The notes: generated by a model from the letters alone, not told the origin. 12,679 bases of DNA from a virus (IMGVR_UViG_2693429557_000008:1-12679), one strand, 5' to 3'; positions 1 through 12,489 are shown, counted from the stretch's first letter. Numbers and translations are program-made.

Positions 1-26
1 TTATCGAATACCTCGGTTTACAGGAA
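1..26 (+). other. Invertase crossover site 1 (gix/cix/hix-like 26-bp site, ttatcgaatacc-tc-ggtttacaggaa) lying inside the tail-fibre reading frame
   Basis: Two imperfect 12-bp half-sites flanking a central TC, resembling hix/gix half-sites (TTATCnAAnACC) as I recall them. An exact inverted copy lies at 2953-2978 and a 2-mismatch inverted copy at 4944-4969. The site is read through in frame as I-E-Y-L-G-L-Q-E-T. Confidence 0.8.
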
Positions 27-971
27 ACGGTAAATCAGGCTTCTGGCGCATTACAGAAAAACCAGAACGGCGCAGATATTCCGGGGAAAGATACCTTCAC
101 CAAAAATATTGGTGCCTGCCGCGCATATAGCTCATGGCTGAATATTGGTGGCGATAGTCAGGTCTGGACAACCGCGCAATTTATTTCGTGGCTGGAGAGT
201 CAGGGAGCATTTAACCATCCTTACTGGATGTGCAAAGGCTCATGGGCTTATGCAAATAATAAGGTCATTACAGATACAGGTTGCGGAAATATTTGTCTTG
301 CAGGTGCTGTGGTGGAAGTTATTGGCACTCGCGGCGCAATGACCATACGCGTTACCACGCCGAGCACGTCCAGCGGTGGCGGAATTACTAACGCTCAATT
401 CACTTATATTAATCATGGTGATGCTTACGCTCCTGGCTGGCGACGAGACTACAACACGAAAAATCAACAACCTGCATTTGCTTTAGGGCAAACAGGAAGC
501 ACTGTCGGAAATGATAAAGCTGTTGGCTGGAACTGGAATAGCGGGGTCTATAACGCAAACATTGGTGGCGCATCGACATTAATCCTCCACTTCAATATGA
601 ATACGGGGAGCTGCCCTGCTGTACAGTTCCGCGTGAATTACAGGAACGGCGGTATTTTTTATCGTTCAGCGCGTGATGGTTATGGCTTTGAAGCTGACTG
701 GTCAGAGTTTTACACCACAACCCGCAAACCCTCTGCGGGAGATGTTGGTGCATATACGCAGGCAGAATGTAACTCAAGGTTTATTACAGGTATTCGCCTT
801 GGTGGTCTGTTATCTGTTCAGACATGGAATGGTCCCGGATGGTCTGACAGGTCAGGTTATGTTGTTACCGGTTCCGTTAACTCAAACAGAGATGAACTAA
901 TTGATACAACTCAGGCAAGGCCAATTCAGTATTGCATTAATGGGACGTGGTATAACGCGGGGAGTATTTAA
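1..971 (+). CDS. Tail fibre protein, variable C-terminal segment A (5' end outside window; constant N-terminal part presumably upstream)
   Basis: Open frame from position 3 to TAA at 969-971. It begins inside the crossover site ([12 protein letters not shown]...) and ends with ...RPIQYCINGTWYNAGSI, a C-terminal motif shared with cassettes B and C. A tfa gene follows 2 nt downstream. Confidence 0.85.
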   Translation, partial: IEYLGLQETVNQASGALQKNQNGADIPGKDTFTKNIGACRAYSSWLNIGGDSQVWTTAQFISWLESQGAFNHPYWMCKGSWAYANNKVITDTGCGNICLAGAVVEVIGTRGAMTIRVTTPSTSSGGGITNAQFTYINHGDAYAPGWRRDYNTKNQQPAFALGQTGSTVGNDKAVGWNWNSGVYNANIGGASTLILHFNMNTGSCPAVQFRVNYRNGGIFYRSARDGYGFEADWSEFYTTTRKPSAGDVGAYTQAECNSRFITGIRLGGLLSVQTWNGPGWSDRSGYVVTGSVNSNRDELIDTTQARPIQYCINGTWYNAGSI

Positions 972-973
972 CG

Positions 974-1507
974 ATGATGCACTTAAAAAACATTTCTGCT
1001 GGTAATCCTGAAACAAAAGAGCAATACCAGCTAACGAAACAATTTAACATCAAATGGCTTTATACAGAGGATGGGAAAAACTGGTATGAGGAACAAAAGA
1101 ACTTTCAGCCTGATACGTTGAAAATGGTCTATGACCACAACGGCGTTATTATTTGTATTGAAAAGGATGTTTCAGCAATTAATCCGGAAGGCGCAAGCGT
1201 CGTTGAGGTTCCTGATATTACAGCAAATCGCCGGGCTGATATTTCAGGTAAATGGATGTTCAAAGATGGCGTAGTGATAAAGCGAACTTATACCGGGGAA
1301 GAGCAGAGGCAACAAGCGGAAAATGAAAAGCAAAGCCTGCTACAGCTCGTCAGGGATAAAACCCAGCTATGGGACTCACAGCTACGGCTGGGCATTATTT
1401 CCGACGAGAATAAACAAAAATTAACCGAGTGGATGCTCTATGCGCAGAAGGTCGAATCCACAGACACCTCCAGCCTGCCAGTAACGTTTCCCGAACAACC
1501 AGAATGA
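974..1507 (+). CDS. Tail fibre assembly chaperone (Tfa) for cassette A
   Basis: ATG ATG at 974, 2 nt after the fibre stop, with GGGGAG upstream. The N-terminus MMHLKNISAGNP...DGKNWYEE...FQPDT is the conserved Tfa N-domain, paralogous to the two - strand tfa genes. Ends TGA at 1505-1507. Confidence 0.9.
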   Translation: MMHLKNISAGNPETKEQYQLTKQFNIKWLYTEDGKNWYEEQKNFQPDTLKMVYDHNGVIICIEKDVSAINPEGASVVEVPDITANRRADISGKWMFKDGVVIKRTYTGEEQRQQAENEKQSLLQLVRDKTQLWDSQLRLGIISDENKQKLTEWMLYAQKVESTDTSSLPVTFPEQPE

Positions 1508-1731
1508 GAGAAGGCCCGCTATCGGGCCTTAATTTTTATTCAGGCTTTTGTGGCCATTCAGGATTTGCCGTATCCACACGGCTGACCAGAACACTGTAGC
1601 GTTCCCATGCTTCCAGTCGTGTGCGTTCCTCGTCCGTCGCCATATTCAGCCTGACAGCGCGTTCCAGCGGCTGGATGACTGATTCAGCTTCGGAAAGCAA
1701 TGCGGCCTTTTGTGATTCGGCCTGTTGTTGC
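1273..1731. repeat. Direct repeat copy 1 (~459 bp, ~98-99% identical to 3141-3599): tfa 3' end, terminator and 3' end of the convergent tfa
   Basis: Aligned by eye at a constant offset of 1868 bp. The only differences seen are about 6 substitutions clustered around the terminator. Confidence 0.85.
1511..1538. terminator. Bidirectional rho-independent terminator between convergent tfa genes
   Basis: aaggcccg-ctat-cgggcctt: 8-bp GC-rich stem with 4-nt loop, followed by a T-run on the + strand and preceded by an A-run, so it is U-rich on both transcripts. Confidence 0.65.
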
Positions 1732-2063
1732 AGTTCCTGTTCTGTATATTCCCTCTTTACTACTTTACCATCCAGAAACATCCATTTTCCGTTATTGTCT
1801 GCGTGACGATTTGCCGTAATATCAGGAACTTCAACTATGCTTAGCCCTTCAGGATTAATAGTTGAAACGTCTTTACTGACAGCAACGATGATGTTGTTCT
1901 CATCGTAAGCAATTTTTATGGTGTCTGGCTGAAAATTCTTTTGTTCCTCATACCAGTTTTTGCCATCTTCGCAAAAGAGCCATACCACGCCCGCTTTTTT
2001 AGTTAGCTGGTATTGTTCCGGTGTTTTCGGATTCCCGGCCTTAATATTTTTCAGGTGCATCAT
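1536..2063 (-). CDS. Tail fibre assembly chaperone (Tfa) for cassette B
   Basis: The track ORF 1536..2099 starts at TTG; the conserved [12 protein letters not shown] start is the ATG at 2063, one nt after the cassette B stop. Its C-terminal ~65 aa are identical to the tfa at 3404..3931. Confidence 0.9.
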
Positions 2064-2064
2064 C

Positions 2065-2978
2065 TTAAACACTCCCCACGTTGTACCATATTCCCCCAAT
2101 CAATTTCTGAATTGGCCTTCTGGCAACAGTGTCGACAATATCATCCGCATTGCTGTTAATTGCGGCTGTTAAAACATAACCTGACGCATCGCCAAAGCCG
2201 TAGTCGCGCCATACGTTTTTATATTCAATGCTGCCAAGACGAATATCCCGAACGACATGATTATGCAGCCATGTGCTTAACCAGTTGTTTTCCCACACTG
2301 AACCATAAATATCGCCACTAGACGCAACTTGCGCACCACTTCCCAGCGCAAATCCCCCATCTGTTTTAAAAATGAAATCACCACCACCATCTGAACCGTT
2401 ATTAATATGAACACCATCACCACCGTTATCTTTCCACAAAAACATACGAATTCTTCCGTCTTCGTTGGCGAATGTAATGTGGTGGCGGTAATTACTTTTT
2501 AATCTAAAATTGCTGCCATTAGATTCAATATCTTTATAAAGATGTAATCCTAACTCATCAATATGTCCGATGCGCGAACCATTTGAATAGAAGCTAATAA
2601 TACCATCTCCATCTTGCCTAAATCCGGTGTCGTTATCTCCCAGAACAATGGAGTTTTCACCCAGTGCGTTATCAGTAGCTCCAATAGCTAGACCTCCTTT
2701 AATTTTGGCCCCGTGGCTGACAGATATAGCACCTGTTCTCAGATTTATAGCGAATGGCCTTAATGGGCCGATATTACCGTTTTCGCCTTGTCCTTCAGCC
2801 GTCGGAATGAAATGAAGAAAATCTTCTGAACGACGGAAAATTAGACCGAAGGTATCATTGAAAATTCGCAGCGCATTCACCGTGCCAATTTTCAGTTCTC
2901 CGGTCATTTTATCGCCGGAACGCTGAACGGCGTTACCAGCCTTGTTTACCGTTTCCTGTAAACCGAGGTATTCGATAA
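2065..2978 (-). CDS. Tail fibre alternative C-terminal cassette B (silent in this orientation; no start codon or full constant region of its own)
   Basis: The frame runs from crossover site 2 ([17 protein letters not shown]...) to TAA at 2065-2067 and ends ...[18 protein letters not shown]. The track ORF 2065..3201 extends upstream only by reading through the constant-region fragment and the antisense of a tfa fragment. Confidence 0.8.
2953..2978 (-). other. Invertase crossover site 2 (inverted orientation, 26/26 identical to site 1)
   Basis: The reverse complement of 2949-2978 equals window positions 1-30 exactly. Confidence 0.85.
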
Positions 2979-3131
2979 CGGCAGCAACGGTCGATTTCGC
3001 AAGAATATCCCGCCCGACTTTTGTCAGGGTTGCCAGGCTGGCGACATCATTCCCCGTAAAATACGGAAACTTGCCTGCCGCAGTAGTAAGTCCGGCCAGC
3101 GCCGTCAGGGTGGCATCTTTCGGTTGCTTAC
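2979..3131 (-). pseudogene. Fragment of the tail-fibre constant region (3' ~150 bp) abutting site 2 in inverted orientation
   Basis: In frame with cassette B on the - strand: ...[48 protein letters not shown] followed by IEYLGLQ at the site. It has no start codon and ends abruptly at the boundary of the 459-bp repeat. Confidence 0.7.
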
Positions 3132-3140
3132 CCGCAAGCG

Positions 3141-3375
3141 AGTGATAAAGCGAACTTATACCGGGGAAGAGCAGAGGCAACAAGCGGAAAATGAAAAGCA
3201 AAGCCTGCTACAGCTCGTCAGGGATAAAACCCAGCTATGGGACTCACAGCTACGGCTGGGCATTATTTCCGACGAGAATAAACAAAAATTAACCGAGTGG
3301 ATGCTCTATGCGCAGAAGGTCGAATCCACAGACACCTCCAGCCTGCCAGTAACGTTTCCCGAACAACCAGAATGA
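3141..3375 (+). pseudogene. Truncated tfa gene (3' 235 bp, identical to the 3' end of the tfa at 974..1507)
   Basis: 3141-3375 appears base-for-base identical to 1273-1507 by eye. It encodes only the C-terminal ~77 aa (…KRTYTGEEQRQQAENEKQ…PVTFPEQPE). The track ORF 3124..3375 has no Tfa N-domain. Confidence 0.8.
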
Positions 3376-3378
3376 AAC

Positions 3379-3405
3379 AAGGCCCGATATCGGGCCTTAA
3401 TTTTT
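3379..3405. terminator. Bidirectional rho-independent terminator (second copy)
   Basis: aaggcccg-atat-cgggcctt followed by TTTTT. It is part of the 459-bp direct repeat; the stem is conserved and the loop differs by one base. Confidence 0.65.
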
Positions 3406-3931
3406 ACTCAGGCTTTTGTGGCCATTCTGGCTTTGCCGTATCCACACGGCTGACCAGAACACTGTAGCGTTCCCATGCTTCCAGTCGTGTGCGTTCCTCG
3501 TCCGTCGCCATATTCAGCCTGACAGCGCGTTCCAGCGGCTGGATGACTGATTCAGCTTCGGAAAGCAATGCGGCCTTTTGTGATTCGGCCTGTTGTTGCT
3601 GTTCGTCAGCCGTATAAATCCGTTTAACCACAGCTCCGTCCTTAAACATCCACTTACCGGAATCATCAGCACGACGATTAGCTGTAATATCAGGAACCTC
3701 AACGACGCTATAACCTTCAGGGTTAAGCGTGGAGGCATCTTTGGTGATGGCGACAATAATATTATTTGCATCGTAAACAATCTTTATTGTGTCTGGCTGA
3801 AAGTTCTTCACTTCCTCATACCAGTTTTTTCCGTCCTCAGAGTAAAGCCAGATGACTCCGTGCTTCTTTGTTAACTCATACTGCTCCACTGTTTTAGCAT
3901 TACCTGCTTTTATGTTCTTTAAGTGCATCAT
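3404..3931 (-). CDS. Tail fibre assembly chaperone (Tfa) for cassette C
   Basis: ATG ATG at 3931/3928 ([14 protein letters not shown]...), one nt after the cassette C stop. The track ORF start at 3964 is likely an upstream extension. It resembles e14 TfaE-type chaperones as I recall them. Confidence 0.9.
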
Positions 3932-3932
3932 A

Positions 3933-4961
3933 TTAAATACTCGCCACATTATACCAAGTGCCATTTATATACTTTTGCACTGGCCTGTAATGAACGCCTG
4001 CAATATTATCGGCAGAGTTTTTTCCGGTATCCTGTACGTTAATCCCCGTCAGTACATAGCCTGACGGGCACTGAAAATTCCATGTTTGCCAGTTGTTCAC
4101 TCCATAATATTGCTGTGAACCAAGTCGAACATCTTTCACATATCTGGAATCAAAATTGCCATAGTTGCCGGGAATAACTTGCGAGCCGCAAAGCCAGTTC
4201 CCGTTATTATCCATGTACGCCTGACCATCGGTGCCATTGGCTGTCCTTGAGTTATTAATCATGTAGATGCCAAATTGCTTATTTCCCAGACCGCCAATCA
4301 TAAATTTGCGGTCGGCATGGTCCTGACGGAGCAAAGCCTGAGCACCATCAGTGGATACCGCATTACGTCCCAAAATAACATTCTGGTCACGCATATGAAT
4401 CCACATGCCGGTACTACTGTTAATTGCAAAACGGTTTGCAAATATATCCCCTGTAACATCAAGACCATGCCCCATGCTTATCCGGCCAGTTCTGAGATTA
4501 AGCGTAAAGGGGCGTAGTGGCCCTATATTACCATTTTCCCCTTCATTCTCTCGTGTAGGGATGATATGCAGGCATTCTTCAGAACGACGAAAAATGGCAC
4601 CAAAAGATGAATTAAATATCCTCAGTGCATTGACTGTCGATATTTTCACTTCACTGCTGAAAAGGGCTTCAACAAGAACAGACAAAGCATTCCATTTAAG
4701 ATTCATCAGGTCTTTAGGCCGGGTGCCAATGATGCGGTGTCTCCATTTGAAATATTCATTGCCGTTGTTGCCTGTTTCAAACCACATGTAGGAATCGGTG
4801 TCTGCATCCGAATTATTTTTAAACCCAATCTTTGCCCAGTCAGTATTTCGAATCCAGGCAAGGATTGAGTCGTTTTCAAAAGTAAGTCCACCGGACAACG
4901 TATCGCCATTTTTTTGCACGGCGTTACCAGCCTTGTTTACCGTTTCCTGTAAACCGAGGTT
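3933..4961 (-). CDS. Tail fibre alternative C-terminal cassette C (silent in this orientation)
   Basis: The frame is open from just inside crossover site 3 to TAA at 3933-3935. The track M at 4919 is actually an in-frame GTG (Val) within ...[17 protein letters not shown].... Ends ...[20 protein letters not shown]. The upstream in-frame stop TAA (4962-4964) sits in the outer arm of site 3. Confidence 0.8.
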
Positions 4962-4969
4962 TTAGATAA
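4944..4969 (-). other. Invertase crossover site 3 (inverted orientation; variant outer arm ttatctaaaacc, same central TC)
   Basis: The reverse complement of 4940-4969 is ttatctaaaacctcggtttacaggaaacgg, matching site 1 at 28 of 30 positions. The inner flank (4921-4939) is identical to the flank of site 2. Confidence 0.8.
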
Positions 4970-5023
4970 TGGCCGTTTCCGGCCTGCATGGCATGATTTG
5001 CGCTTTTGGACGGGAGATTCAGC

Positions 5024-5611
5024 GTGCTGATTGGCTATGTAAGGGTATCAACAAATGACCAGAATACAGACCTGCAACGAAACGCTCTTGTTTGTGCAGG
5101 ATGTGAACAAATATTTGAAGATAAATTAAGCGGGACAAAGACAGACCGACCGGGATTAAAACGCGCTTTAAAGCGCCTTCAAAAAGGTGACACGCTGGTT
5201 GTCTGGAAACTGGATCGCCTCGGGCGAAGCATGAAACATCTGATTTCTCTCGTCGGGGAACTACGGGAGCGAGGAATTAATTTTCGCAGTCTGACCGACA
5301 GCATAGATACATCTTCTCCAATGGGGCGTTTTTTCTTCCACGTGATGGGTGCCCTGGCTGAAATGGAACGTGAATTAATTGTTGAACGTACACTGGCCGG
5401 ACTGGCGGCAGCACGCGCACGGGGGCGCACAGGCGGACGTCGACCGAAGCTGACAAAAGAACAGCATGAGCAAATAGCAAGGCTGATCAAAAACGGGCAC
5501 GACAGAAAACAACTGGCAATAATTTACGGCATTGGTATATCGACGATTTATCGTTACCACCCCGCAGGAGAATCAATCGGAACAATAGAGAAGAGTCAGG
5601 AAACAAAATAA
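5024..5611 (+). CDS. Serine-recombinase DNA invertase (Pin/Gin/Cin/Hin family)
   Basis: MLIGYVRVSTNDQNTDLQRNAL... with the catalytic Ser in the YVRVST motif and a C-terminal HTH region. A GTG start at 5024 has GGGAGA 6 nt upstream; the track ORF begins at an upstream TTG at 5006. Ends TAA at 5609-5611. Confidence 0.93.
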   Translation: MLIGYVRVSTNDQNTDLQRNALVCAGCEQIFEDKLSGTKTDRPGLKRALKRLQKGDTLVVWKLDRLGRSMKHLISLVGELRERGINFRSLTDSIDTSSPMGRFFFHVMGALAEMERELIVERTLAGLAAARARGRTGGRRPKLTKEQHEQIARLIKNGHDRKQLAIIYGIGISTIYRYHPAGESIGTIEKSQETK

Positions 5612-5646: not shown

Positions 5647-6141
5647 TCAGAACAACCCTTTAACTGAACTGGCCGCGCTGTTAAGGGATGATGTTACCTT
5701 ATCTTTGAAGCCGGACAGCATATCGCTGAACGATGAGGATTGCAGGCGCTCCCGCAAATCCTCATCACAGCGTTCAAGAGTCAGTGAAAATTCTATCTTT
5801 TTCGCCTTACCGTAGCGATCAAACTCGGAGCGGGTCGTATTCGTTTCGGTCAGGACATACATGCCGTAAATCTGCCCGACGCCATCAATCAGAGGCCAGG
5901 GTCGTCCTGTATACGCCTGCGTGGTCAGCAGCGACAGCGACACTTCGCCACCTGTAATTTCAGGATAAAGCACACCAGAAAGAACGATGCGCTCATCACC
6001 TGCACCGATATACTGCCAGCTTGCCGAACGGTTAACGCGTTCATTTTTCACATGCCGCCAGCTTTTGTTTTGCTGTAACTGCTGATGCGGCAATGTACGC
6101 AGCTCAAAAACAAACATGCCGTAGATCATCATCATGGCCAT
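5647..6141 (-). CDS. U: Tail protein U homologue (P2 gpU-like)
   Basis: About 160 aa, immediately downstream of the tape measure gene, with a …SWRH…LSGVL.PE.TGG… pattern I recall from gpU. The start is ambiguous among ATGs at 6141, 6135 and 6132; GAGGAG at 6144-6149 favours 6135 or 6132. Confidence 0.8.
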   Translation of the reverse strand: MAMMMIYGMFVFELRTLPHQQLQQNKSWRHVKNERVNRSASWQYIGAGDERIVLSGVLYPEITGGEVSLSLLTTQAYTGRPWPLIDGVGQIYGMYVLTETNTTRSEFDRYGKAKKIEFSLTLERCDEDLRERLQSSSFSDMLSGFKDKVTSSLNSAASSVKGLF

Positions 6142-6147
6142 GACTCC

Positions 6148-8955
6148 TCAATCTTTATCGTAAAAACTGCCACGCCCGGCACGGGCGCGCCGTTCCATTT
6201 CTGCCCTGACCATTTCACCGACCAGTTTCGCCAGTTCGCGGGGATTCTGCGTAACAACGTTATGCAGATGAACATGAATTTCACCACCAAATCCGGAGGC
6301 AACAGGCTCCCGGTTACGGGAAGTTACAGGAACTGATGCCACTGGAGAGCGTATGGCCTCCGCCACCGGGCGGGAGCTGGCCGCAACAACAGGGACCAGC
6401 GCCGGAGGCAGCGGAGCCGGGACCACGGGTGTGATATTAATTGCGGGGGCAGGCTTACTGACCTGCGCAATCTTCCGCTCCTGCCACTCCCCACGAACAG
6501 CAAGTGCGCGGGGCAGGTTCTTAAAGACAATATCGCCGGGGCCAATGCGTTTTTTCGTCTCATCAACCAGCTTACCTGTGTTATCAGCAATTTTGCTGAG
6601 TCTGCGTAGCGTCCCGGTATTGCTGTCTGTGAGCGGTTTGTTGTCTTTGGGTTTATCACCTCCGGTGCCATTGCCATTTTCCACAGGCTTCGGCGGATTG
6701 ATTTTCGCCAGGTCCCCCTGAAGCAAGGCAACCTTGTCCTGAAGAATGGCCGCACGCTGTGCGTCTTCGATTTTCTTGCGCGCCCTTTCCGCTTCATCCG
6801 GAAGGACGCCAAGTTTTTCAAGTATCCACGCCAGCGTATCCAGTAGCATTTTTGCAGGTGTCAGAACAAGTTGTAACGCACCGCCAAGAACGTTACCGAA
6901 TATCTCGCCAGCACTGGCACATTTATCCAGCGTTTCCTTGCTGGACTCCATCGGTGACAGCAGCGATTTAAACCAGTTAAAGACCTGAATAATCCCATCG
7001 CGCACGACATCAAAAACAGGGCCAAACCGTTCAAAGGTTTCGCGCAACGGGGTCAGCCTTTCCATAATCCCGCTGAACACCCCGGCAAAAAATGCCCTGA
7101 TGGGATCCCAGTATTTCCAGATAAGAACGGCAGCTCCGGCAAGCGCAGCCACGATAAGACTAACCGGACTGAACAGCGCCCCGATAGCGCCACCAAGTAA
7201 AGAAACGGAACCCGTCACCATTCCCCATAATGCAGGCAGAACCCTGACAACATTCATTGATTCGGTCAGGAGAGAAAAACCGAGACGCAACGTAGCCAGC
7301 TTCCCGTGAAGCACCCCAATAACCAGAGACAACGAACCAACCGTTGCTGTTGTCGCCAGCAGTGCGCCTCCCGCTATCAGTAACTGGCGCGTCAGTGCCG
7401 GGTGGGCCTGCGCCAGCGCCGTCACCTTTGAGACAACCCGCGTGAGCCACTGCGTGACAGAACGCAGCGGACCGTCAACCAGATCACTGATGCGAATACG
7501 CAGACCTTCCCATGCACTGCCGAGTGATTTCAGGTTGCCATCAAGGTTATTGGCCATAACCTTTGCCGTGCGTTCTGCCTCACCGCGCGCGCCTTCAAGT
7601 TCTTTTCTCAGTTTGGCTAAGAAGCCGTCACCTGCCGCATCAACGAGGCCCATAAATGATGTGAAAGCCTCTTCTCCGGCAATGTCCTTAAAGAACGATA
7701 CCCGGTCAACCTCCCCGTATTTGCGGGTGGCTTTATAGAGATCGGCCAGCACATTCTCCATCGGGCGCATTTTGCCTTTGGCGTCAGCAACTGACACCCC
7801 CAGCTCTTTCAGTGCTTCTGCCGCTGCCTTTGGCGGTGATGACAGATTGGCCAGGCTTTTACGCAACGCTGTACCTGCATCACTCCCCCTGATACCCATC
7901 TTCGCCAGCACGCCCGCCATCGCTGCGGCCTGCTCCAGCGATATTCCCAGCTTACCCGCCACCGGACCTGCATATTTCATGGTTTCGCCCAGTGCGCGAA
8001 GGTCAGTGTTGGTACGGGTAAACGCTGCGGTAAGTGTGTCACCGACCCGGTCCATCTGGTCAGCAGAGAGGCCGAACTGCGTCAGGATATTGGAACCAAT
8101 ATCCGCCGTCTCGCCGAGGTCCATACCGCCAGCCGTTGCCATGCTCAGCACGCCGGGAAGCGCAGCCTGAATGGCCTGCGGTGTGAAACCAGCCATTGCA
8201 AGAAATGCCTGTCCACTGGCGGCATCGCCTGCGGTGAACTGCGTTTCAGAGCCAAGTTTTAACGCCTGCTCACGCAGCGCCTTAAACTGCGGGCTGTTTT
8301 TATCGATTCGCGTCAGTGCCTGAACACGGGACATCTCTTTCCCGAACCCGATAGCGGGCTGCAAAAAACGCCCGGCAGCATAGCCGCCCGCTGCCGCCGC
8401 ACCTGTTGCCAGCGCACCACCTGTTTTCAGTTTTCCCGCTGTTTCCTGCGCGCGTGAATACCGCTCACGCGCCTGCGTTACACGCGCAAGCGCCCGCCGT
8501 TCGCGTTCAAGCTGGTTGTTGTATTGTCCGGTGCGTCTGATGGCCTGCTGGATGGTGTTATCGCTGCCTGTCAGGGAAATGCCGTGGCGTTTCAGCTCTC
8601 CGCCAAGTTCCCGCATTTTCTGAATTTCCCGTGTGCGCGATTCATTCAGGCGTTCAAGCCGGGTGCTTAACTGCTGCATCAGCTTTTGTTGTTTTTCGCT
8701 GAGCACTGTACCCGTGCGTTGTAACTGATTAAGGGCGTTAAGCTGGCGTCGTGCTTTCACGATGCCCGCATCCGCTTTACTGACAGCGTCACGGGCGCGC
8801 TCAAATGAACGCGCCTGACGCTCGAGATTTTTGATCGCCCCCTGCGTTCGCTGGATGGAGTCACCAAACTGCCCCATCAGGCGGCGGGCGTTTTCGGCAG
8901 GCCGGGTCAGCCTGTCAACGGCGCTGAAAGCGACCCGGATATCAAGAGTCTTCAT
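6148..8955 (-). CDS. T: Tail tape measure protein (P2 gpT-like)
   Basis: A ~935-aa ORF, alanine/glycine-rich, with predicted hydrophobic segments and a proline-rich C-terminal stretch. It sits between E+E' and U, and its start overlaps the E' end. The track start at 8991 is GTG; ATGs at 8964 and 8955 are alternatives, 8955 having GGGAA 8 nt upstream. Confidence 0.88.
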   Translation of the reverse strand: MKTLDIRVAFSAVDRLTRPAENARRLMGQFGDSIQRTQGAIKNLERQARSFERARDAVSKADAGIVKARRQLNALNQLQRTGTVLSEKQQKLMQQLSTRLERLNESRTREIQKMRELGGELKRHGISLTGSDNTIQQAIRRTGQYNNQLERERRALARVTQARERYSRAQETAGKLKTGGALATGAAAAGGYAAGRFLQPAIGFGKEMSRVQALTRIDKNSPQFKALREQALKLGSETQFTAGDAASGQAFLAMAGFTPQAIQAALPGVLSMATAGGMDLGETADIGSNILTQFGLSADQMDRVGDTLTAAFTRTNTDLRALGETMKYAGPVAGKLGISLEQAAAMAGVLAKMGIRGSDAGTALRKSLANLSSPPKAAAEALKELGVSVADAKGKMRPMENVLADLYKATRKYGEVDRVSFFKDIAGEEAFTSFMGLVDAAGDGFLAKLRKELEGARGEAERTAKVMANNLDGNLKSLGSAWEGLRIRISDLVDGPLRSVTQWLTRVVSKVTALAQAHPALTRQLLIAGGALLATTATVGSLSLVIGVLHGKLATLRLGFSLLTESMNVVRVLPALWGMVTGSVSLLGGAIGALFSPVSLIVAALAGAAVLIWKYWDPIRAFFAGVFSGIMERLTPLRETFERFGPVFDVVRDGIIQVFNWFKSLLSPMESSKETLDKCASAGEIFGNVLGGALQLVLTPAKMLLDTLAWILEKLGVLPDEAERARKKIEDAQRAAILQDKVALLQGDLAKINPPKPVENGNGTGGDKPKDNKPLTDSNTGTLRRLSKIADNTGKLVDETKKRIGPGDIVFKNLPRALAVRGEWQERKIAQVSKPAPAINITPVVPAPLPPALVPVVAASSRPVAEAIRSPVASVPVTSRNREPVASGFGGEIHVHLHNVVTQNPRELAKLVGEMVRAEMERRARAGRGSFYDKD

Positions 8956-9471
8956 TGTCTGCATTCCCGCTGCGAAGTGCCGCCCGCTCACGCCAGCTAA
9001 CCACTTCGCCGGGCGTCATCATGAAGATTTCGGCGGGCGACCAGTTAAAAATGGCGGCAATATCCGCCACAAAGTCTTCTATGTGCTCAAAGCACACAAC
9101 CGTGATCAGGCTTCCGTCGCCTGTTCGTTCTTCTCGCCAGAGTCCGCACCGCTCAAAAAATTTACGGCAACCACACATAACTGAATAAAGTCACGGGATG
9201 CCATTTTTTTGATCGTCACTTCATCCAGTCGCGGTGATGTCACGCGTGACAGCAGCGTAAACATGGATTCCGCTTTCAAATTCAGCACATCAGACAGCGA
9301 CAAATCTCGCAGAGATCCAGCCTGCTCAATAGCCCCGGTGATCTCCACATACGTGATTTTTTCGCCGCCTCGCTCAATTGGTTGGGTAAGTTTTACGCCA
9401 CGCTCACTGGTTTCTTTCACAGTGTCAGCAACGACCGTGTTTTCGGTATCGATGTTTTTCGTCTCTTTCAT
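8942..9471 (-). CDS. E+E' fusion produced by programmed -1 ribosomal frameshift (slip at 9154-9160)
   Basis: The -1 frame is blocked by a stop at 9191-9193 and then open from 9190 to TGA at 8942-8944. The E-frame heptamer T-TTT-TTG lies inside this overlap. The predicted fusion is about 176 aa. Confidence 0.7.
9106..9471 (-). CDS. E: Tail assembly chaperone E (P2 gpE / lambda G analogue)
   Basis: ATG at 9471 with AAGGAG 7 nt upstream. The 121-aa zero-frame product ends at TGA 9108-9106. It lies between the tube gene and the tape measure gene and contains a TTTTTTG slippery heptamer. Confidence 0.8.
   Translation of the reverse strand: MKETKNIDTENTVVADTVKETSERGVKLTQPIERGGEKITYVEITGAIEQAGSLRDLSLSDVLNLKAESMFTLLSRVTSPRLDEVTIKKMASRDFIQLCVVAVNFLSGADSGEKNEQATEA
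9154..9160 (-). promoter_or_regulatory. Slippery heptamer T TTT TTG for the E/E' -1 frameshift
   Basis: The - strand reads aaT TTT TTG agc in the E frame (…V N F L S…). This is the heptamer I recall being reported for the P2 E/E+E' frameshift. Confidence 0.65.
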
Positions 9472-9525
9472 CAGGAAACTCCTTTCAGTCAGAGGCGACG
9501 CACTGCGCCGCCTGCATATTACTTA

Positions 9526-10038
9526 TCAGCCAAGCCCGAGCGCGGAACGGATGCGATCGGGCACAATGTCCCTGCCGTCCTTCCGGTAAATGAAGTTCAG
9601 CAGGTCAATCTCCCACAACGGGCGATCGTTAACACTCAGCTTGTAGTAGGTGTTTTTAATGGCGTAAGTGTGTGATGTGGCTTCGCCCTGTTTGGCTTCC
9701 CCCATATCAATTTCCGTCACACGTCCGCGCATTTCGACTTCATACAGGTCGCTTTCAGCGTCGGTGTAGTATTCACCCGCAAAACGCAGCAGCGTACCGT
9801 CAATCGTGCCGCCATACTTAAGGAACAGCTCACGAACTGCGCCCCCCATGACAAAGCTCGCATCAAGCGCGGAGTCATCCAGGCCGAGATCAATACTTAC
9901 CGCTCCCATCATGCCACCACCCCGGTAGCTGTCGGTTTTGCGCGTCAGCTTAGGCAGAGTGACGGACGTCACCTTACCCACTTCGTTTTCACCATCCACA
10001 AACAGCGTAAAAAAGCGAAGATGTTTTGGTACAGCCAT
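9526..10038 (-). CDS. FII: Tail tube protein (P2 FII-like)
   Basis: A 170-aa ORF whose ATG at 10038 overlaps the sheath TGA stop (shared A at 10038, translational coupling). Size and position match the P2 F_I-F_II pair. Confidence 0.88.
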   Translation of the reverse strand: MAVPKHLRFFTLFVDGENEVGKVTSVTLPKLTRKTDSYRGGGMMGAVSIDLGLDDSALDASFVMGGAVRELFLKYGGTIDGTLLRFAGEYYTDAESDLYEVEMRGRVTEIDMGEAKQGEATSHTYAIKNTYYKLSVNDRPLWEIDLLNFIYRKDGRDIVPDRIRSALGLG

Positions 10039-11222
10039 CAGGCACCTCCCAGCACCGCAAATGCGGGACCAAAGAATTCATCAGTAAACGACTGGTAAAG
10101 CTCCATGTCTTCCAGCGGGGGAACAGGCGTATATTTGTAGCGAATACGCACGCGCCCCTGACGTAAATTCGTGGTGCCGTTATCCACCACGTCATACCAG
10201 CACGACGCCCCAATCAGTTTCCCGGCAGTAACCAGTGAATCCAGTTTTGCCCTGATGGCACCGATAACATCCTTCACGTTCGCAGGCGTCAGTGGACTGT
10301 CGATGGTTTCAAACTGCGCTTCCGCAATTGAATCAGCCAGCACCTGTGCGGTTCGGGTATACACCTCAAAGATGTAGGCGTTCGTTTCCGGTGTGCGGTT
10401 GCCCCAGAAGCGGAACCCGTTGCGACGAATAATGGTCGTGATTTCTTTGTTGTTGAGGCTGTTGGCATCACTGTCTTCGGCCTGCAACGACCAGAACACA
10501 TGCCTGGACATCCCCAGCACATTTTTAACCGGAACGTTGGACAGCGATTTGTGCCAGCCCTGCTCATGGTCAATGTACGCACGAAGGCCGCACGCATAGG
10601 CAGGCGCGGGGAACGTTTCGTTTTTGCCACTTTTCGGGTTGTAGGCGATGAAGTCCGGCCATAAGAGCATCACCTCACGTTCGTTGAATTTCTGGCGGTA
10701 GGTAATTGCCTCAGCCATCGTGTTACAGTCATGACATGAGGCATACACAAACGCGCGCAGTTTACCCGCAATCACGCACAGGGATTTTGTCACCGCCTCC
10801 GTGTCCAGCTCCGGCGCGGCCAGAATACGCGGACGGTATCCGATGCTTTCATCCTGCTCTGCAACAAGCAGCGCATACATCCCCGTATAGCTGCCGTCAG
10901 ATTCAGAACCACCGATAACCAGTTGATCCTGCGTTTTTCCGTCTTCTTCTTTGTGTTCAGCCACGCGAACGACGATCACCTTTGTGCTCACCTGGTCTGC
11001 GATGGCCTTAAGCGCACGATAAAGCGTCCCCGTTGTTCCGCATTTTCCCAGCACGTCATTGACGCGGGGCAGCAGTGTGGGCTTGTTCAGCGGGAACAGC
11101 TCCGCGTCCGCATCATCCGCCGTTGCCACGATACCGATAACGCTGGAATCAACATCGTTAATCGCTGTTACCAGGTCGGTATTTTCCGTAACACGGGCAC
11201 CATGAAAACGAGTTTCACTCAT
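10038..11222 (-). CDS. FI: Contractile tail sheath protein (P2 FI-like)
   Basis: A 394-aa ORF with motifs I recall from P2-family sheaths (FPLNKP…, EQGWHK.LSNV, RRNGFRFWGNRT, YTRTAQV, YKYTPVPPLE). ATG at 11222 with AAGGGG 8 nt upstream. Confidence 0.93.
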   Translation of the reverse strand: MSETRFHGARVTENTDLVTAINDVDSSVIGIVATADDADAELFPLNKPTLLPRVNDVLGKCGTTGTLYRALKAIADQVSTKVIVVRVAEHKEEDGKTQDQLVIGGSESDGSYTGMYALLVAEQDESIGYRPRILAAPELDTEAVTKSLCVIAGKLRAFVYASCHDCNTMAEAITYRQKFNEREVMLLWPDFIAYNPKSGKNETFPAPAYACGLRAYIDHEQGWHKSLSNVPVKNVLGMSRHVFWSLQAEDSDANSLNNKEITTIIRRNGFRFWGNRTPETNAYIFEVYTRTAQVLADSIAEAQFETIDSPLTPANVKDVIGAIRAKLDSLVTAGKLIGASCWYDVVDNGTTNLRQGRVRIRYKYTPVPPLEDMELYQSFTDEFFGPAFAVLGGA

Positions 11223-11379
11223 AGCTTCAACCCCTTGTATCCGTTAAATGATTCGGCAACAATCATCACCCACCACGCGCGTAATCTCACCCCTGCGCCA
11301 TTCTCCCGCCACGGCGACAACAAAAAGCAGTAACCCCCTCCGCACGCACATGCGACCATGCCACACAGGGAGGGAGCAG

Positions 11380-12489
11380 ATGACCGACACCACCATGCAA
11401 TTGCTCAGTCAGGGCACAGACCCCGTGAAAATGCCGGATTTTGATATTCTCGCGGAGGGTAAAACGCTGTCAGGCGTGGCAGAGCGCCTGATGAGCCTGT
11501 CACTGACCGACAACCGGGGATTTGAGGCGGACCAGCTCACCATCACGCTGGATGATGCGGATGGTCAGTTGCAGCTACCGCCACGGGGCGCGCGCCTGAC
11601 GGTTCTCATTGGCTGGAAGGGAGAACCGCTGACAGAAAAAGGCACTTACATTGTTGATGAAATCGCTCACGAAGGACCGCCGGACAGGCTGACTGTTTCA
11701 GCCAGAAGCGCAGATTTTCGGGCTGAATTTAACGTTAAACGTGAGGTGTCCTGGCATGATGTGACCGTTGAGCGTGTGGTATCCGCCATCGCTCATCGGT
11801 ATGGTCTGAAACCGCAAATCAGCGAAATGCTGATGGATATCGAAATCGACCACGCCGACCAGACCGAAGAAAGCGACATGTCCTTCCTTACGCGCATGGC
11901 GGAAATGCTGGGCGCAATCACCACGGTAAAAAGCGGTAATCTGTTATTCATCATGCCCGGTGGTGGCGTGAACGCACAGGGCCAGCCGTTGCCCTCGTTC
12001 GCCATCACACGCAGCAGCGGCGATCGCCATCAGTTCCGCATTGCTGACCGCGAAGCGTATACGGGGGTACGCGCTTACTGGCTTGATCTTAATTACGGGA
12101 AAAAGAAAAAAGTCAGCGTGAAACGCCGCAAACCGTCAAAACCAAAAAAGGAGAAAAGCAGCAGCCGGGAAGGCGACTATATGGAAGGTGCGGAAGGCAA
12201 CGTGTTTGTGTTACGCAAAACTTATCAGAACGAGCAGGCAGCAAGACGTGCAGCGGCGGCAAAGTGGCAGCAGCTACAACGCGGAGCCGCATCATTCTCC
12301 ATCACACTGGCGCATGGACGTGCAGAACTCTACCCCGAAATGCATGGCACGGTAACAGGATTTAAAAGCGAGATTGATAATCAGGACTGGATTATTGCAA
12401 AAGCCGAGCACACCATTGATAACAGCGGCTTTACCACGCAGCTTGAGCTTGAGGCAAAAATCCCGGAATGGATAGCAGAAACAGAGTGA
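11380..12489 (+). CDS. D: Tail protein D homologue (P2 gpD-like late tail gene)
   Basis: The ORF track opens at 11248, but the ATG at 11380 has GGGAGGGAG upstream and gives MTDTTMQLLSQGTDPVKMPDFDIL…LTDNRGFEADQL…RSADFR…SWHD…, matching the gpD pattern as I remember it. It includes a lysine-rich low-complexity insert (KKKKVSVKRRKPSKPKKEK). Confidence 0.85.
   Translation: MTDTTMQLLSQGTDPVKMPDFDILAEGKTLSGVAERLMSLSLTDNRGFEADQLTITLDDADGQLQLPPRGARLTVLIGWKGEPLTEKGTYIVDEIAHEGPPDRLTVSARSADFRAEFNVKREVSWHDVTVERVVSAIAHRYGLKPQISEMLMDIEIDHADQTEESDMSFLTRMAEMLGAITTVKSGNLLFIMPGGGVNAQGQPLPSFAITRSSGDRHQFRIADREAYTGVRAYWLDLNYGKKKKVSVKRRKPSKPKKEKSSSREGDYMEGAEGNVFVLRKTYQNEQAARRAAAAKWQQLQRGAASFSITLAHGRAELYPEMHGTVTGFKSEIDNQDWIIAKAEHTIDNSGFTTQLELEAKIPEWIAETE

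What the first reader, a model, noticed from the sequence alone, without database searches (positions are those of the whole stretch)
8942..9471. Programmed -1 frameshift (TTTTTTG) producing an E+E' tail chaperone
The E frame contains T-TTT-TTG at 9160-9154 (- strand), and the -1 frame is open from there to a stop at 8942-8944, overlapping the tape measure start. This is the conserved arrangement of P2 E/E' and lambda G/GT. The products here (about 121 and 176 aa) are longer than the P2 proteins as I recall them.
Basis: partly seen in the sequence, partly recalled or inferred. Interest (0 to 1): 0.45.

Follow-up and report, generated by a model that had tools for sequence, protein, structure and literature searches.

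The report
P2-type E/E′ tail-gene frameshift site
This is the ordinary, well-known "slip back one base" signal that P2-like phages use to make a short and a long version of a tail-assembly protein, here in a common E. coli prophage whose public annotation misses it.

Summary
A 121-aa ORF (9471..9106, minus strand) lies between the tail-tube and tape-measure genes. It contains T_TTT_TTG (9160-9154) in the X_XXY_YYZ phase. The -1 frame is open from there to TGA 8944-8942, overlapping the tape-measure ATG (8955), and gives a 176-aa fusion.

The pattern alone is not beyond chance; homology and conservation make the case. The -1 frame matches Pfam Phage_P2_GpE (9.8e-12). The fusion aligns with the annotated gpE+E′ of phage Wphi (1e-24), with the shift in the same column. 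In 78 of 79 non-redundant related junctions an in-phase slippery heptamer sits in the E/E′ overlap.

The window is a P88-type (Xuanwuvirus, Peduoviridae) prophage. Public records annotate two separate genes instead of a fusion.

Refinements:
- The slippery run is really A_AAT_TTT_TTG (9163-9154), two overlapping heptamers.
- A sister clade, found in 599 complete E. coli genomes and including the active phage ΦSM, keeps only A_AAT_TTT.
- The junction peptide would tell the sites apart: VNFF-ER versus VNFL-ER.
- No stimulatory RNA structure was found, as reported for P2.

Verdict: a real feature and a new member of a known kind, of low interest.

The parts
9106..9471 (-). Gene E, the zero-frame product of 121 aa; the end coordinate includes the stop codon. 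It is a homologue of P2 gpE, the short tail-assembly protein.
   Evidence: ORF and translation. PHROG 103 at 1.8e-35. Pfam PF10109 Phage_TAC_7 at 17.2 bits, below the gathering score of 25. Aligns with Wphi gpE.
9479..9485 (-). Shine-Dalgarno sequence AAAGGAG, 7 nt upstream of the E start codon.
   Evidence: Read directly from the sequence.
9154..9163 (-). Compound slippery run A_AAT_TTT_TTG: two overlapping in-phase heptamers, A_AAT_TTT (9163-9157) and T_TTT_TTG (9160-9154).
   Evidence: The sister clade keeps only A_AAT_TTT. Most other Peduoviridae sampled have T_TTT_TTG.
8942..9157 (-). E' coding region in the -1 frame (70-71 codons plus stop), translated only as an extension of E. The conserved P2 GpE' domain corresponds to fusion residues 135-170.
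   Evidence: Translation. Pfam PF06528 at 9.8e-12. PHROG 1756 at 1.3e-39. Third-position bias of substitutions against the sister clade. Conserved G(L/A/V)W..ER.GDG motif directly after the slip site.
9106..9156 (-). Overlap of the E tail in the zero frame (LSGADSGEKNEQATEA*) with the start of E'.
   Evidence: Against the sister clade the E tail differs at 8 of 16 residues, and E' differs at 5 of 17 over the same DNA.
8942..8955 (-). 14-nt overlap between the end of E' and the start of tape-measure gene T (ATG 8955-8953).
6148..8955 (-). Tape-measure gene T (935 aa), the presumed client of E and E+E'.
   Evidence: Pfam PhageMin_Tail at 1.4e-57. PHROG 28.
9526..10038 (-). Tail tube gene (FII homologue), immediately upstream of E.
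   Evidence: Pfam Phage_tube at 1.9e-46.

Best explanation
Gene E is translated from ATG 9471. Most ribosomes end at TGA 9108-9106 and make the 121-aa protein E. A minority slip back one nucleotide on the U-rich run A_AAU_UUU_UUG (9163-9154). They continue in the -1 frame to TGA 8944-8942 and make a 176-aa protein, E+E', with the same first 105-106 residues and a different C-terminal domain.

By homology with P2 E/E+E' and by analogy with lambda G/GT, the shared E part is expected to bind the tape-measure protein encoded immediately downstream. The E' domain is expected to link it to the tube and baseplate during tail assembly. The fixed slip frequency would set the ratio of the two proteins.

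Shown here: the anatomy, the homology of both frames to the P2 proteins, the conservation of an in-phase slippery site at the same position, and purifying selection in the -1 frame.

Inferred: that slippage actually occurs, that it is ribosomal, how often it happens, which heptamer is used, and the chaperone role.
For: 1. Anatomy. The ORF, the heptamer phase and the -1 ORF end are as described.

2. The -1 frame codes for a known domain. Pfam PF06528 Phage_P2_GpE matches at 9.8e-12. PHROG 1756 matches fusion residues 103-174 at 1.3e-39. tblastn finds this domain in P2, 186, Wphi, Fels-2 and phiE202.

3. The fusion aligns with the annotated -1 frameshift product gpE+E' of Wphi over both parts (1e-24). 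The shift falls in the same column, at the nearly invariant F105.

4. In 78 of 79 non-redundant homologous junctions an in-phase X_XXY_YYZ heptamer lies in the E/E' overlap. The counts are TTTTTTG alone 36, CCCTTTC 14, AAATTTT+TTTTTTG 8, AAATTTT 7, CCCTTTT+TTTTTTG 5, TTTTTTA 4, TTTTTTT 2, TTTTTTC 1 and GGGAAAG 1.

5. The -1 frame is conserved from the slip site onward. The motif G(L/A/V)W..ER.GDG lies upstream of any candidate internal start. In the E'-only stretch, 6 of 8 substitutions against the sister clade are at third positions of the -1 frame, with 2 of 50 residues changed.

6. Synteny is tube - E - E' - tape measure - U.

7. Literature. P2 shifts -1 at TTTTTTG to give E (91 aa) and E+E' (142 aa), with no downstream hairpin (PMC3091744). 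The lambda G/GT mechanism and the importance of the product ratio are reviewed in PMC5009743.

8. In E. coli reporter tests, H_HH.U_UU.Y motifs (including A_AAU_UUU and C_CCU_UUC) are among the most efficient heptamers (PMC4066793).
Against: - There is no expression, proteomic or genetic evidence for this lineage. The P88 and PhiSM papers do not mention the gene pair.
- No stimulatory element was found. Downstream folding is no better than shuffles (z = -1.41 for 100 nt and +0.65 for 60 nt). RNAalifold finds no conserved pair in 11 relatives. There is no Rfam match.
- U_UUG is a weak A-site tetramer in E. coli reporter tests.
- E itself scores below Pfam's gathering threshold for Phage_TAC_7 (17.2 against 25 bits).
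- The chaperone role of P2-type E proteins is itself an analogy with lambda G/GT.
Confidence: 0.9

Rival explanations
1. E' is an independent small gene (51 aa) that starts at GTG 9097, as RefSeq/PGAP and the P88 record annotate it ('GpE family phage tail protein'). No frameshift is involved.
For: Public records annotate a separate CDS: L001 6504..6659, P88 gp46, and similar short CDSs in SEN4, Zymomonas, Yersinia and Acidovorax phages.
Against: - No clear Shine-Dalgarno sequence precedes GTG 9097.
- The annotated starts differ from phage to phage.
- The -1 frame is conserved at the protein level from the slip site onward, including the G(L/A/V)W..ER.GDG motif, which lies upstream of GTG 9097.
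- An in-phase slippery heptamer is kept in 78 of 79 relatives, which an independent gene would not require.
- In P2 the E' frame was shown to be read as an extension of E (Christie et al. 2002, as cited; the experimental details are from my own knowledge of the abstract).
Confidence: 0.04
2. The fusion arises from transcriptional slippage. RNA polymerase adds one extra U on the T6 tract (9160-9155), and ordinary translation of the edited mRNA gives E+E'.
For: - Inserting one T is equivalent to the -1 shift.
- Relatives and database proteins with altered run lengths carry in-frame E-E' fusions: T7 in L021, T4 in P0025, and A8 in P0048/P0057/P0058. These show that the homopolymer tracts here are prone to length change, at least in DNA or in sequencing.
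Against: - Six T is short for productive transcriptional slippage (my own knowledge: known bacterial cases use runs of about 8-9 or more).
- Homologues keep the arrangement with only T4 (AAATTTTATG, in 599 E. coli genomes and the active phage PhiSM) or T3 (CCCTTTC). These tracts fit heptamer re-pairing but not polymerase slippage.
- The strict phase of the heptamers relative to the E frame matters for ribosomes, not for polymerase.
Confidence: 0.04
3. The shift occurs, but mainly or only on the upstream heptamer A_AAU_UUU (9163-9157), not on the T_TTT_TTG named by the reader. This is a sub-hypothesis of the best explanation, not an alternative to it, and the confidence given is conditional on the shift occurring.
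For: - The sister Xuanwuvirus clade reads AAATTTTATG and so has only A_AAT_TTT. It occurs in 599 of 5426 complete E. coli genomes and includes the spontaneously active phage PhiSM.
- Klebsiella relatives likewise keep C_CCT_TTC where their cousins have C_CCT_TTT_TTG.
- H_HH.U_UU.Y is among the most efficient motif classes in E. coli, whereas U_UUG is a weak A-site tetramer (PMC4066793).
Against: - T_TTT_TTG is by far the commonest site in the family: it is present in 49 of 79 junctions and is the only in-phase heptamer in 36 of them.
- It is the site used in P2.
- L035 has T_TTT_TTG without an upstream heptamer.
- Both sites may contribute.
Confidence: 0.4
4. Chance co-occurrence: a U-rich heptamer and an open -1 frame with no function.
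For: The bare pattern is common. TTTTTTG occurs 6 times against 4.9 expected. Twenty in-phase heptamers with a -1 extension of at least 40 codons occur in the window's stop-to-stop frames.
Against: - Pfam and PHROG match the -1 frame.
- The site and frame arrangement are conserved in 78 of 79 relatives down to about 30% protein identity.
- The -1 frame is under purifying selection.
Confidence: 0.01

Closest known systems
Bacteriophage P2 (and Wphi, 186) tail genes E and E+E' (Christie et al. 2002, J Bacteriol 184:6522; cited in PMC3091744 and PMC5009743)
   Same: - The genes are homologous in both frames: 30% identity to Wphi gpE+E' at 1e-24, and the Pfam Phage_P2_GpE domain.
- The position is the same, between the tube (FII) and tape-measure (T) genes.
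- The T_TTT_TTG heptamer, in the same phase, falls in the same alignment column.
- The end of E' overlaps the start of T.
- There is no downstream hairpin.
   Different: - The proteins are longer: 121 and 176 aa against 91 and 142 aa. The extra length comes from an N-terminal extension of about 22 residues, a linker about 10-14 residues longer after the slip (ERCGLWREERTGDG), and a longer zero-frame tail (16 residues against 8, counted from Leu106).
- E falls below Pfam's threshold for Phage_TAC_7.
- A second overlapping heptamer, A_AAT_TTT, is present.
- Gene D does not follow U but lies divergently upstream of the sheath gene.
Phage lambda G / GT tail assembly chaperones (Levin et al. 1993; Xu, Hendrix and Duda 2004, 2013, 2014; reviewed in PMC5009743)
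   Same: - Two overlapping ORFs lie directly upstream of the tape-measure gene.
- They are joined by a programmed -1 shift on an X_XXY_YYZ heptamer near the end of the first ORF.
- The expected outcome is a fixed ratio of short to long product.
   Different: - No sequence similarity was seen.
- Lambda uses G_GGA_AAG; only the Mannheimia relative does so in this family.
- Lambda has a non-contractile tail.
- The binding partners of E and E' in contractile tails were not tested here.
Sister Xuanwuvirus clade (Escherichia phages 520873 and 503458, Citrobacter phage PhiSM)
   Same: About 88% nucleotide identity. The E/E' architecture and lengths are the same (124 and 179 aa), and the E' domain is nearly identical.
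   Different: The slip run reads AAATTTTATG, so T_TTT_TTG is lost and only A_AAT_TTT remains. The -1 frame is open further upstream, back to an A7 run.
E. coli dnaX and IS3-family -1 frameshift sites
   Same: Tandem-slippage heptamer logic in a bacterial host (PMC4066793).
   Different: Those sites rely on stimulators: an upstream SD-like sequence and a downstream hairpin or pseudoknot. None was detected here.

Membership tests
P2-type E / E+E' tail protein pair (Peduoviridae) | The E' (-1 frame) product carries the P2 GpE' domain (Pfam PF06528). | tested here: met
   PF06528 at 9.8e-12, 44.6 bits against a cut-off of 23, covering fusion residues 135-170. All 10 fusions in A1 match it.
P2-type E / E+E' tail protein pair (Peduoviridae) | The E (zero frame) product belongs to the gpE family (Pfam PF10109 Phage_TAC_7). 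| tested here: inconclusive
   PF10109 scores only 17.2 bits, below the cut-off of 25 (E = 0.005). However, PHROG 103 matches at 1.8e-35, and the BLASTP alignment to Wphi gpE+E' covers the E part as well. The motifs LRG and PR(I/V)T.P.L are shared.
P2-type E / E+E' tail protein pair (Peduoviridae) | An in-phase slippery heptamer near the 3' end of E, at the position homologous to the P2 TTTTTTG. | tested here: met
   T_TTT_TTG at 9160-9154 spans codons 104-106 of 121. It falls in the same alignment column as in Wphi. An in-phase heptamer is conserved in 78 of 79 relatives.
P2-type E / E+E' tail protein pair (Peduoviridae) | Location between the tail tube gene and the tape-measure gene, with E' ending at or overlapping the tape-measure start. 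| tested here: met
   Tube gene 9526-10038, E 9106-9471, E' ending at 8942, T ATG at 8955.
P2-type E / E+E' tail protein pair (Peduoviridae) | E' has no translation start of its own and is made only as a -1 extension of E (about 10% in P2, from my knowledge of Christie et al. 2002). | not testable with these tools
   Indirect support only. There is no clear SD before GTG 9097, and the -1 frame is conserved upstream of that codon. Protein or reporter data are needed.
Tail assembly chaperone pair of the lambda G/GT kind (functional class; Xu et al. 2004) | Two overlapping ORFs immediately 5' of the tape-measure gene, linked by a programmed frameshift. | tested here: met
Tail assembly chaperone pair of the lambda G/GT kind (functional class; Xu et al. 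2004) | The short product binds the tape-measure protein, the long product also binds the tube protein, and neither is present in the virion. | not testable with these tools
   No relative has a solved structure. The AlphaFold model of a fused relative was unusable (pLDDT 42), so no fold comparison was run.
Stimulated bacterial -1 frameshift sites (dnaX / IS3 type) | A downstream hairpin or pseudoknot 5-9 nt after the heptamer, or an upstream SD-like element. | tested here: not met
   z = +0.65 for 60 nt and -1.41 for 100 nt. RNAalifold finds no pairs in 11 relatives. No Rfam hit. No SD-like sequence was seen by eye in the 20 nt upstream.

The most novel reading that the evidence does not exclude
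The functional shift site in this prophage family is not fixed. The window carries a 10-nt compound run (A_AAU_UUU_UUG) with two overlapping heptamers.

Twice in the family a compound X_XXU_UUU_UUG site has apparently lost the P2-type U_UUU_UUG by one point change and kept only the upstream heptamer:
- Xuanwuvirus: AAATTTTTTG -> AAATTTTATG.
- Klebsiella Reipivirus-like phages: CCCTTTTTTG -> CCCTTTCTTG.

If so, in enterobacterial hosts the upstream H_HHU_UUY heptamer does much or most of the work. Switching between sites would then be a natural way to retune the E : E+E' ratio. The window would represent the intermediate state, with both sites active and two fusion isoforms (…NFF-ER… and …NFL-ER…).
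Probability: 0.35. Interest if true: 0.3.

Novelty: new member of a known kind. Interest (0 to 1): 0.15.

Why it matters
The practical value is mainly for annotation. This prophage type is present in about a quarter of complete E. coli genomes (1374 of 5426). RefSeq/PGAP and the P88 and related phage records list E and a 51-aa "GpE family" protein as separate genes, so the real 176-aa product is missing from protein databases.

It adds no new biology to the P2 E/E′ or lambda G/GT paradigm.

The one modestly interesting point is the pair of overlapping heptamers and the repeated replacement of the P2-type heptamer by the upstream one in sister clades. This gives a natural test set for how slippery-site identity sets the ratio of tail chaperones without any stimulatory RNA structure.

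Tried and rejected
- **Downstream stimulator.** Folding of 60 and 100 nt after the site is no better than shuffles. RNAalifold on 11 relatives finds no pairs. Rfam finds nothing in the window. A terminator-like hairpin at 9070-9051 lies about 85 nt 3′ of the site, too far to act as a frameshift stimulator. I did not pursue it.
- **Structure.** AlphaFold2 on a naturally fused relative (P0025) with an 18-sequence alignment gave pLDDT 42. This is unusable, so I ran no fold search. A profile search of PDB sequences found no relative. I judged a second large protein search to deepen the alignment not worth its cost for an ordinary finding.
- **NCBIfam.** No model matches E, the fusion, or Wphi gpE+E′.
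- **Literature.** Christie et al. 2002 (PMC135442) is not held in the library. I took its content from papers that cite it and from my memory of the abstract, marked as such. The P88 and ΦSM papers say nothing about this gene pair.
- **Bare-pattern statistics.** The heptamer count and the mechanical scan for "heptamer plus long -1 extension" are not distinguishable from chance. I therefore did not use them as evidence.
- **A7 run (9210-9204) as an alternative slip site.** In the window the -1 frame from there hits TGA after four codons, so I rejected it for this clade. In the sister clade that frame is open, and I did not resolve the question there.
Full report
**1. Observation**

On the minus strand an ORF runs from ATG 9471-9469 to TGA 9108-9106 and encodes 121 aa. 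An AAAGGAG Shine-Dalgarno sequence lies 7 nt upstream of the start. Codons 104-106 read AAT TTT TTG, so TTTTTTG at 9160-9154 is in the X_XXY_YYZ phase.

Reading in the -1 frame from there gives FERCGLWREERTGDGSLITVVCFEHIEDFVADIAAIFNWSPAEIFMMTPGEVVSWRERAALRSGNADNEDS, followed by TGA at 8944-8942. The fusion is 176 aa long. The stop lies 14 nt inside the tape-measure ORF, whose ATG is at 8955-8953. RefSeq uses the same start in a 99.5%-identical genome. Every coordinate in the finding is therefore correct.

As a bare pattern this is not remarkable:
- TTTTTTG occurs 6 times in the window against 4.9 expected.
- A mechanical scan finds 20 in-phase heptamers followed by at least 40 open -1 codons in stop-to-stop frames of the window.

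The case rests on homology and conservation, not on the pattern.

**2. What the region is**

The neighbouring genes on the same strand are:
- tail sheath, 10038-11222;
- tail tube, 9526-10038 (Pfam Phage_tube, 1.9e-46);
- tape measure, 6148-8955 (PhageMin_Tail, 1.4e-57);
- gpU, 5647-6141 (1e-38).

The window is 98-99% identical to Escherichia phages P88, 500465-2 and PhiR44_2, which belong to genus Xuanwuvirus, family Peduoviridae, that is, P2-like phages. Prophages with this segment occur in 1374 of 5426 complete E. coli genomes.

The -1 frame matches Pfam PF06528 "Phage P2 GpE" (9.8e-12, fusion residues 135-170) and PHROG 1756 (1.3e-39, residues 103-174). The zero frame matches PHROG 103 (1.8e-35). 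It matches Pfam PF10109 (Phage_TAC_7, "E, or 41 or 14") only weakly, at 17.2 bits, below the gathering score of 25.

The 176-aa fusion aligns with gpE+E′ of phage Wphi at 30% identity across both parts (E = 1e-24). Wphi is a close P2 relative, and its record annotates a joined CDS "-1 translational frameshift". In a 10-sequence alignment of fusions from different Peduoviridae, the shift point falls in the same column, just after the nearly invariant Phe105.

**3. Conservation of the signal**

I fetched 14 annotated loci and 80 viral contigs that encode relatives. For each I located the overlap between the E frame and the frame that holds the conserved AD[IL]A.[IV]F[HN]W motif. Of 79 non-redundant junctions, 78 carry an in-phase X_XXY_YYZ heptamer in that overlap:

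| Heptamer(s) | Junctions | Notes |
|---|---|---|
| T_TTT_TTG alone | 36 | includes Wphi/P2-type, Serratia KSP20, Salmonella SEN4, Yersinia, Acidovorax |
| C_CCT_TTC | 14 | Klebsiella |
| A_AAT_TTT + T_TTT_TTG | 8 | the window's clade |
| A_AAT_TTT alone | 7 | sister clade |
| C_CCT_TTT + T_TTT_TTG | 5 | |
| T_TTT_TTA | 4 | |
| T_TTT_TTT | 2 | |
| T_TTT_TTC | 1 | |
| G_GGA_AAG | 1 | Mannheimia, where the depositor's note already calls it a slippery sequence |

The one junction without a heptamer is a distant locus (L092, 30% identity).

Conservation of a phase-specific heptamer across proteins that have diverged to about 30% identity is what a programmed ribosomal shift predicts.

**4. Evidence that the -1 frame is translated from the slip site**

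Across relatives with only about 55% nucleotide identity in this stretch, the -1 frame directly after the run keeps the motif G(L/A/V)W..ER.GDG. The third frame contains stop codons. This motif lies upstream of GTG 9097, which RefSeq and the P88 record use as the start of a separate 51-aa "GpE family" protein.

I compared the window with the sister clade (phage 520873):
- In the E′-only stretch there are 8 substitutions in 150 nt. Six are at third positions of the -1 frame, and only 2 of 50 residues change.
- In the overlap, E′ changes at 5 of 17 residues and the E tail at 8 of 16.

The single base that sets this window apart from all 820 E. coli genomes carrying the same 81-mer is inferred, from the fetched relatives, to be A9134. 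It is synonymous in E′ (CGA/CGG) and changes Gly to Glu in the E tail.

An independent start for E′ is therefore unlikely. I put it at about 0.04.

**5. A refinement: two overlapping heptamers**

The run is GTA AAT TTT TTG. Besides T_TTT_TTG (9160-9154) there is therefore an in-phase A_AAT_TTT (9163-9157), and both lead into the same -1 frame.

The sister Xuanwuvirus clade reads GTA AAT TTT ATG, so it has lost T_TTT_TTG and keeps only A_AAT_TTT. This clade is about 88% identical and comprises phages 520873 and 503458 and Citrobacter phage ΦSM. The variant is found in 599 complete E. coli genomes, against 820 for the window's version. ΦSM is reported to be a spontaneously active phage (PMC6456863).

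The same thing is seen elsewhere in the family. Some relatives read GTC CCT TTT TTG, with both C_CCT_TTT and T_TTT_TTG. Their Klebsiella cousins read GTC CCT TTC TTG and have only C_CCT_TTC.

In systematic reporter tests in E. coli, H_HH.U_UU.Y heptamers are among the most efficient. These include A_AAU_UUU and C_CCU_UUC. U_UUG is a weak A-site tetramer (Sharma et al. 2014, PMC4066793).

I give that about 0.4, conditional on the shift occurring.

The two sites predict different junctions:
- …VNF-F-ERCG… for A_AAU_UUU, or for a P-site-only slip.
- …VNF-L-ERCG… for a tandem slip on U_UUU_UUG.

**6. Stimulators**

- The 60 nt and 100 nt after the run fold no better than shuffled sequence (z = +0.65 and -1.41).
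- RNAalifold on 11 aligned relatives predicts no pair at all.
- Rfam finds nothing in the window.

This agrees with the reported absence of a downstream hairpin in P2 and its Burkholderia relatives (PMC3091744).

**7. Ribosomal versus transcriptional slippage**

Adding one U to the mRNA would give the same fusion, and the homopolymer tracts here are prone to length change in databases:
- Relatives carry T7 (L021, where E and E′ form one ORF) and T8 (L037) instead of T6.
- Database proteins include in-frame fusions from a T4 tract (P0025) and from an A8 in place of the upstream A7 run (P0048, P0057, P0058).

Whether these are sequencing errors or real mutants I cannot tell.

Against a transcriptional mechanism, the arrangement persists with only T4 or T3 tracts in whole clades. 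The heptamers also keep a strict phase with the E frame, which matters to ribosomes and not to RNA polymerase. I give transcriptional slippage about 0.04.

**8. Comparison with what is known**

In P2, a -1 shift at TTTTTTG yields E (91 aa) and E+E′ (142 aa) from one start (PMC3091744, citing Christie et al. 2002 and Xu et al. 2004). From my own knowledge of the Christie abstract, E′ is essential and the shift frequency is about 10%. Lambda G/GT is the functional paradigm: the G part binds the tape measure, the T part binds the tube protein, and the ratio matters (PMC5009743).

The window's pair is a sequence homologue of the P2 pair, with the same site, position and synteny. It differs as follows:
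- It is longer (121 and 176 aa). The extra length comes from an N-terminal extension of about 22 residues, a linker 10-14 residues longer after the slip, and a 16-residue zero-frame tail against 8.
- E falls below Pfam's threshold for Phage_TAC_7.
- It has the extra overlapping heptamer.

The held papers on P88 and ΦSM do not mention the gene pair. The public records annotate two separate CDSs.

**9. Verdict**

It is a new, unannotated member of a thoroughly known kind. The mechanism is inferred by homology, not shown for this lineage.

Interest is low (0.15). The only mildly novel angle is the compound slippery run and the apparent hand-over between heptamers in sister clades.

Attempts to obtain a structural comparison failed: the AlphaFold model reached only pLDDT 42, and no relative has a solved structure.

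Noticed in passing
window 1-5611 (repeats at 1-61, 2923-2978, 4909-4969; invertase 5006..5611 +): A serine DNA invertase (Resolvase domain, 1.5e-50) lies next to three tail-fibre C-terminal cassettes: 228..971 +, 2065..3201 - and 3933..4919 -. Each cassette has its own Caudo_TAP tail-fibre assembly gene: 974..1507 +, 1536..2099 - and 3404..3964 -. There are three copies of a crossover-like repeat, TTCCTGTAAACCGAGGTATTCGATAA, which from memory resembles the Mu gix site. This looks like a multi-site invertible host-range region with more cassettes than the P88 record shows.
   Followed up: partly
window 11248..12489 (+): The gpD homologue (Phage_GPD, 5e-17) is transcribed divergently from the sheath gene. 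In P2 it follows U in the FETUD operon; here U is followed by the invertase. P88 has the same layout.
   Followed up: no
window 9513-9493 (-): A 9-bp GC-rich hairpin (AGGCGGCGC-AGU-GCGUCGCCU) lies between the tube gene stop and the E Shine-Dalgarno sequence, with no U-tract after it. The 57-nt intergenic stretch folds at -18.4 kcal/mol, z = -1.9. A Mannheimia relative has an annotated terminator at the same place. It may attenuate transcription or stabilise the mRNA between the abundant tube gene and the low-level assembly genes.
   Followed up: partly
L021, L036, L037 (about 1438-1451); proteins P0025, P0048, P0057, P0058: Homopolymer length varies at or near the slip site in relatives: T6 (canonical), T7 (E and E' become one ORF), T8, T4, and A8 in place of the upstream A7 run. 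Several database 'proteins' are therefore in-frame E-E' fusions that carry PF06528. These could be sequencing errors or real slippage mutants.
   Followed up: partly
window 9210-9204 (-): An A7 run inside E (codons Ile-Lys-Lys). In the window the -1 frame from there stops after four codons. In the sister clade it stays open all the way into E', so a slip or a 1-nt insertion there would also give a long fusion.
   Followed up: partly
window 9070-9051 (-): A terminator-like hairpin followed by a T-run (GTGGCGGATATTGCCGCCAT TTTTAAC) lies inside the E' coding region. It sits over the conserved VADIAAIFNW motif, about 85 nt downstream of the slip site.
   Followed up: no
window 9134 (-): The window's 81-mer around the slip site is not 100% identical to any of the 820 E. 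coli genomes that carry it; the best match has one mismatch. The difference is inferred to be A9134, where the fetched relatives have G. It is synonymous in E' (Arg) and changes Gly113 to Glu in the E tail.
   Followed up: partly
L023 (about 1660-1730) and L015 (about 1600-1650): Two close relatives carry single-base indels inside E'. In L023 the indel joins the E' frame to the tape-measure frame. In L015 it breaks E' in the middle. These are decaying prophages or assembly errors.
   Followed up: no
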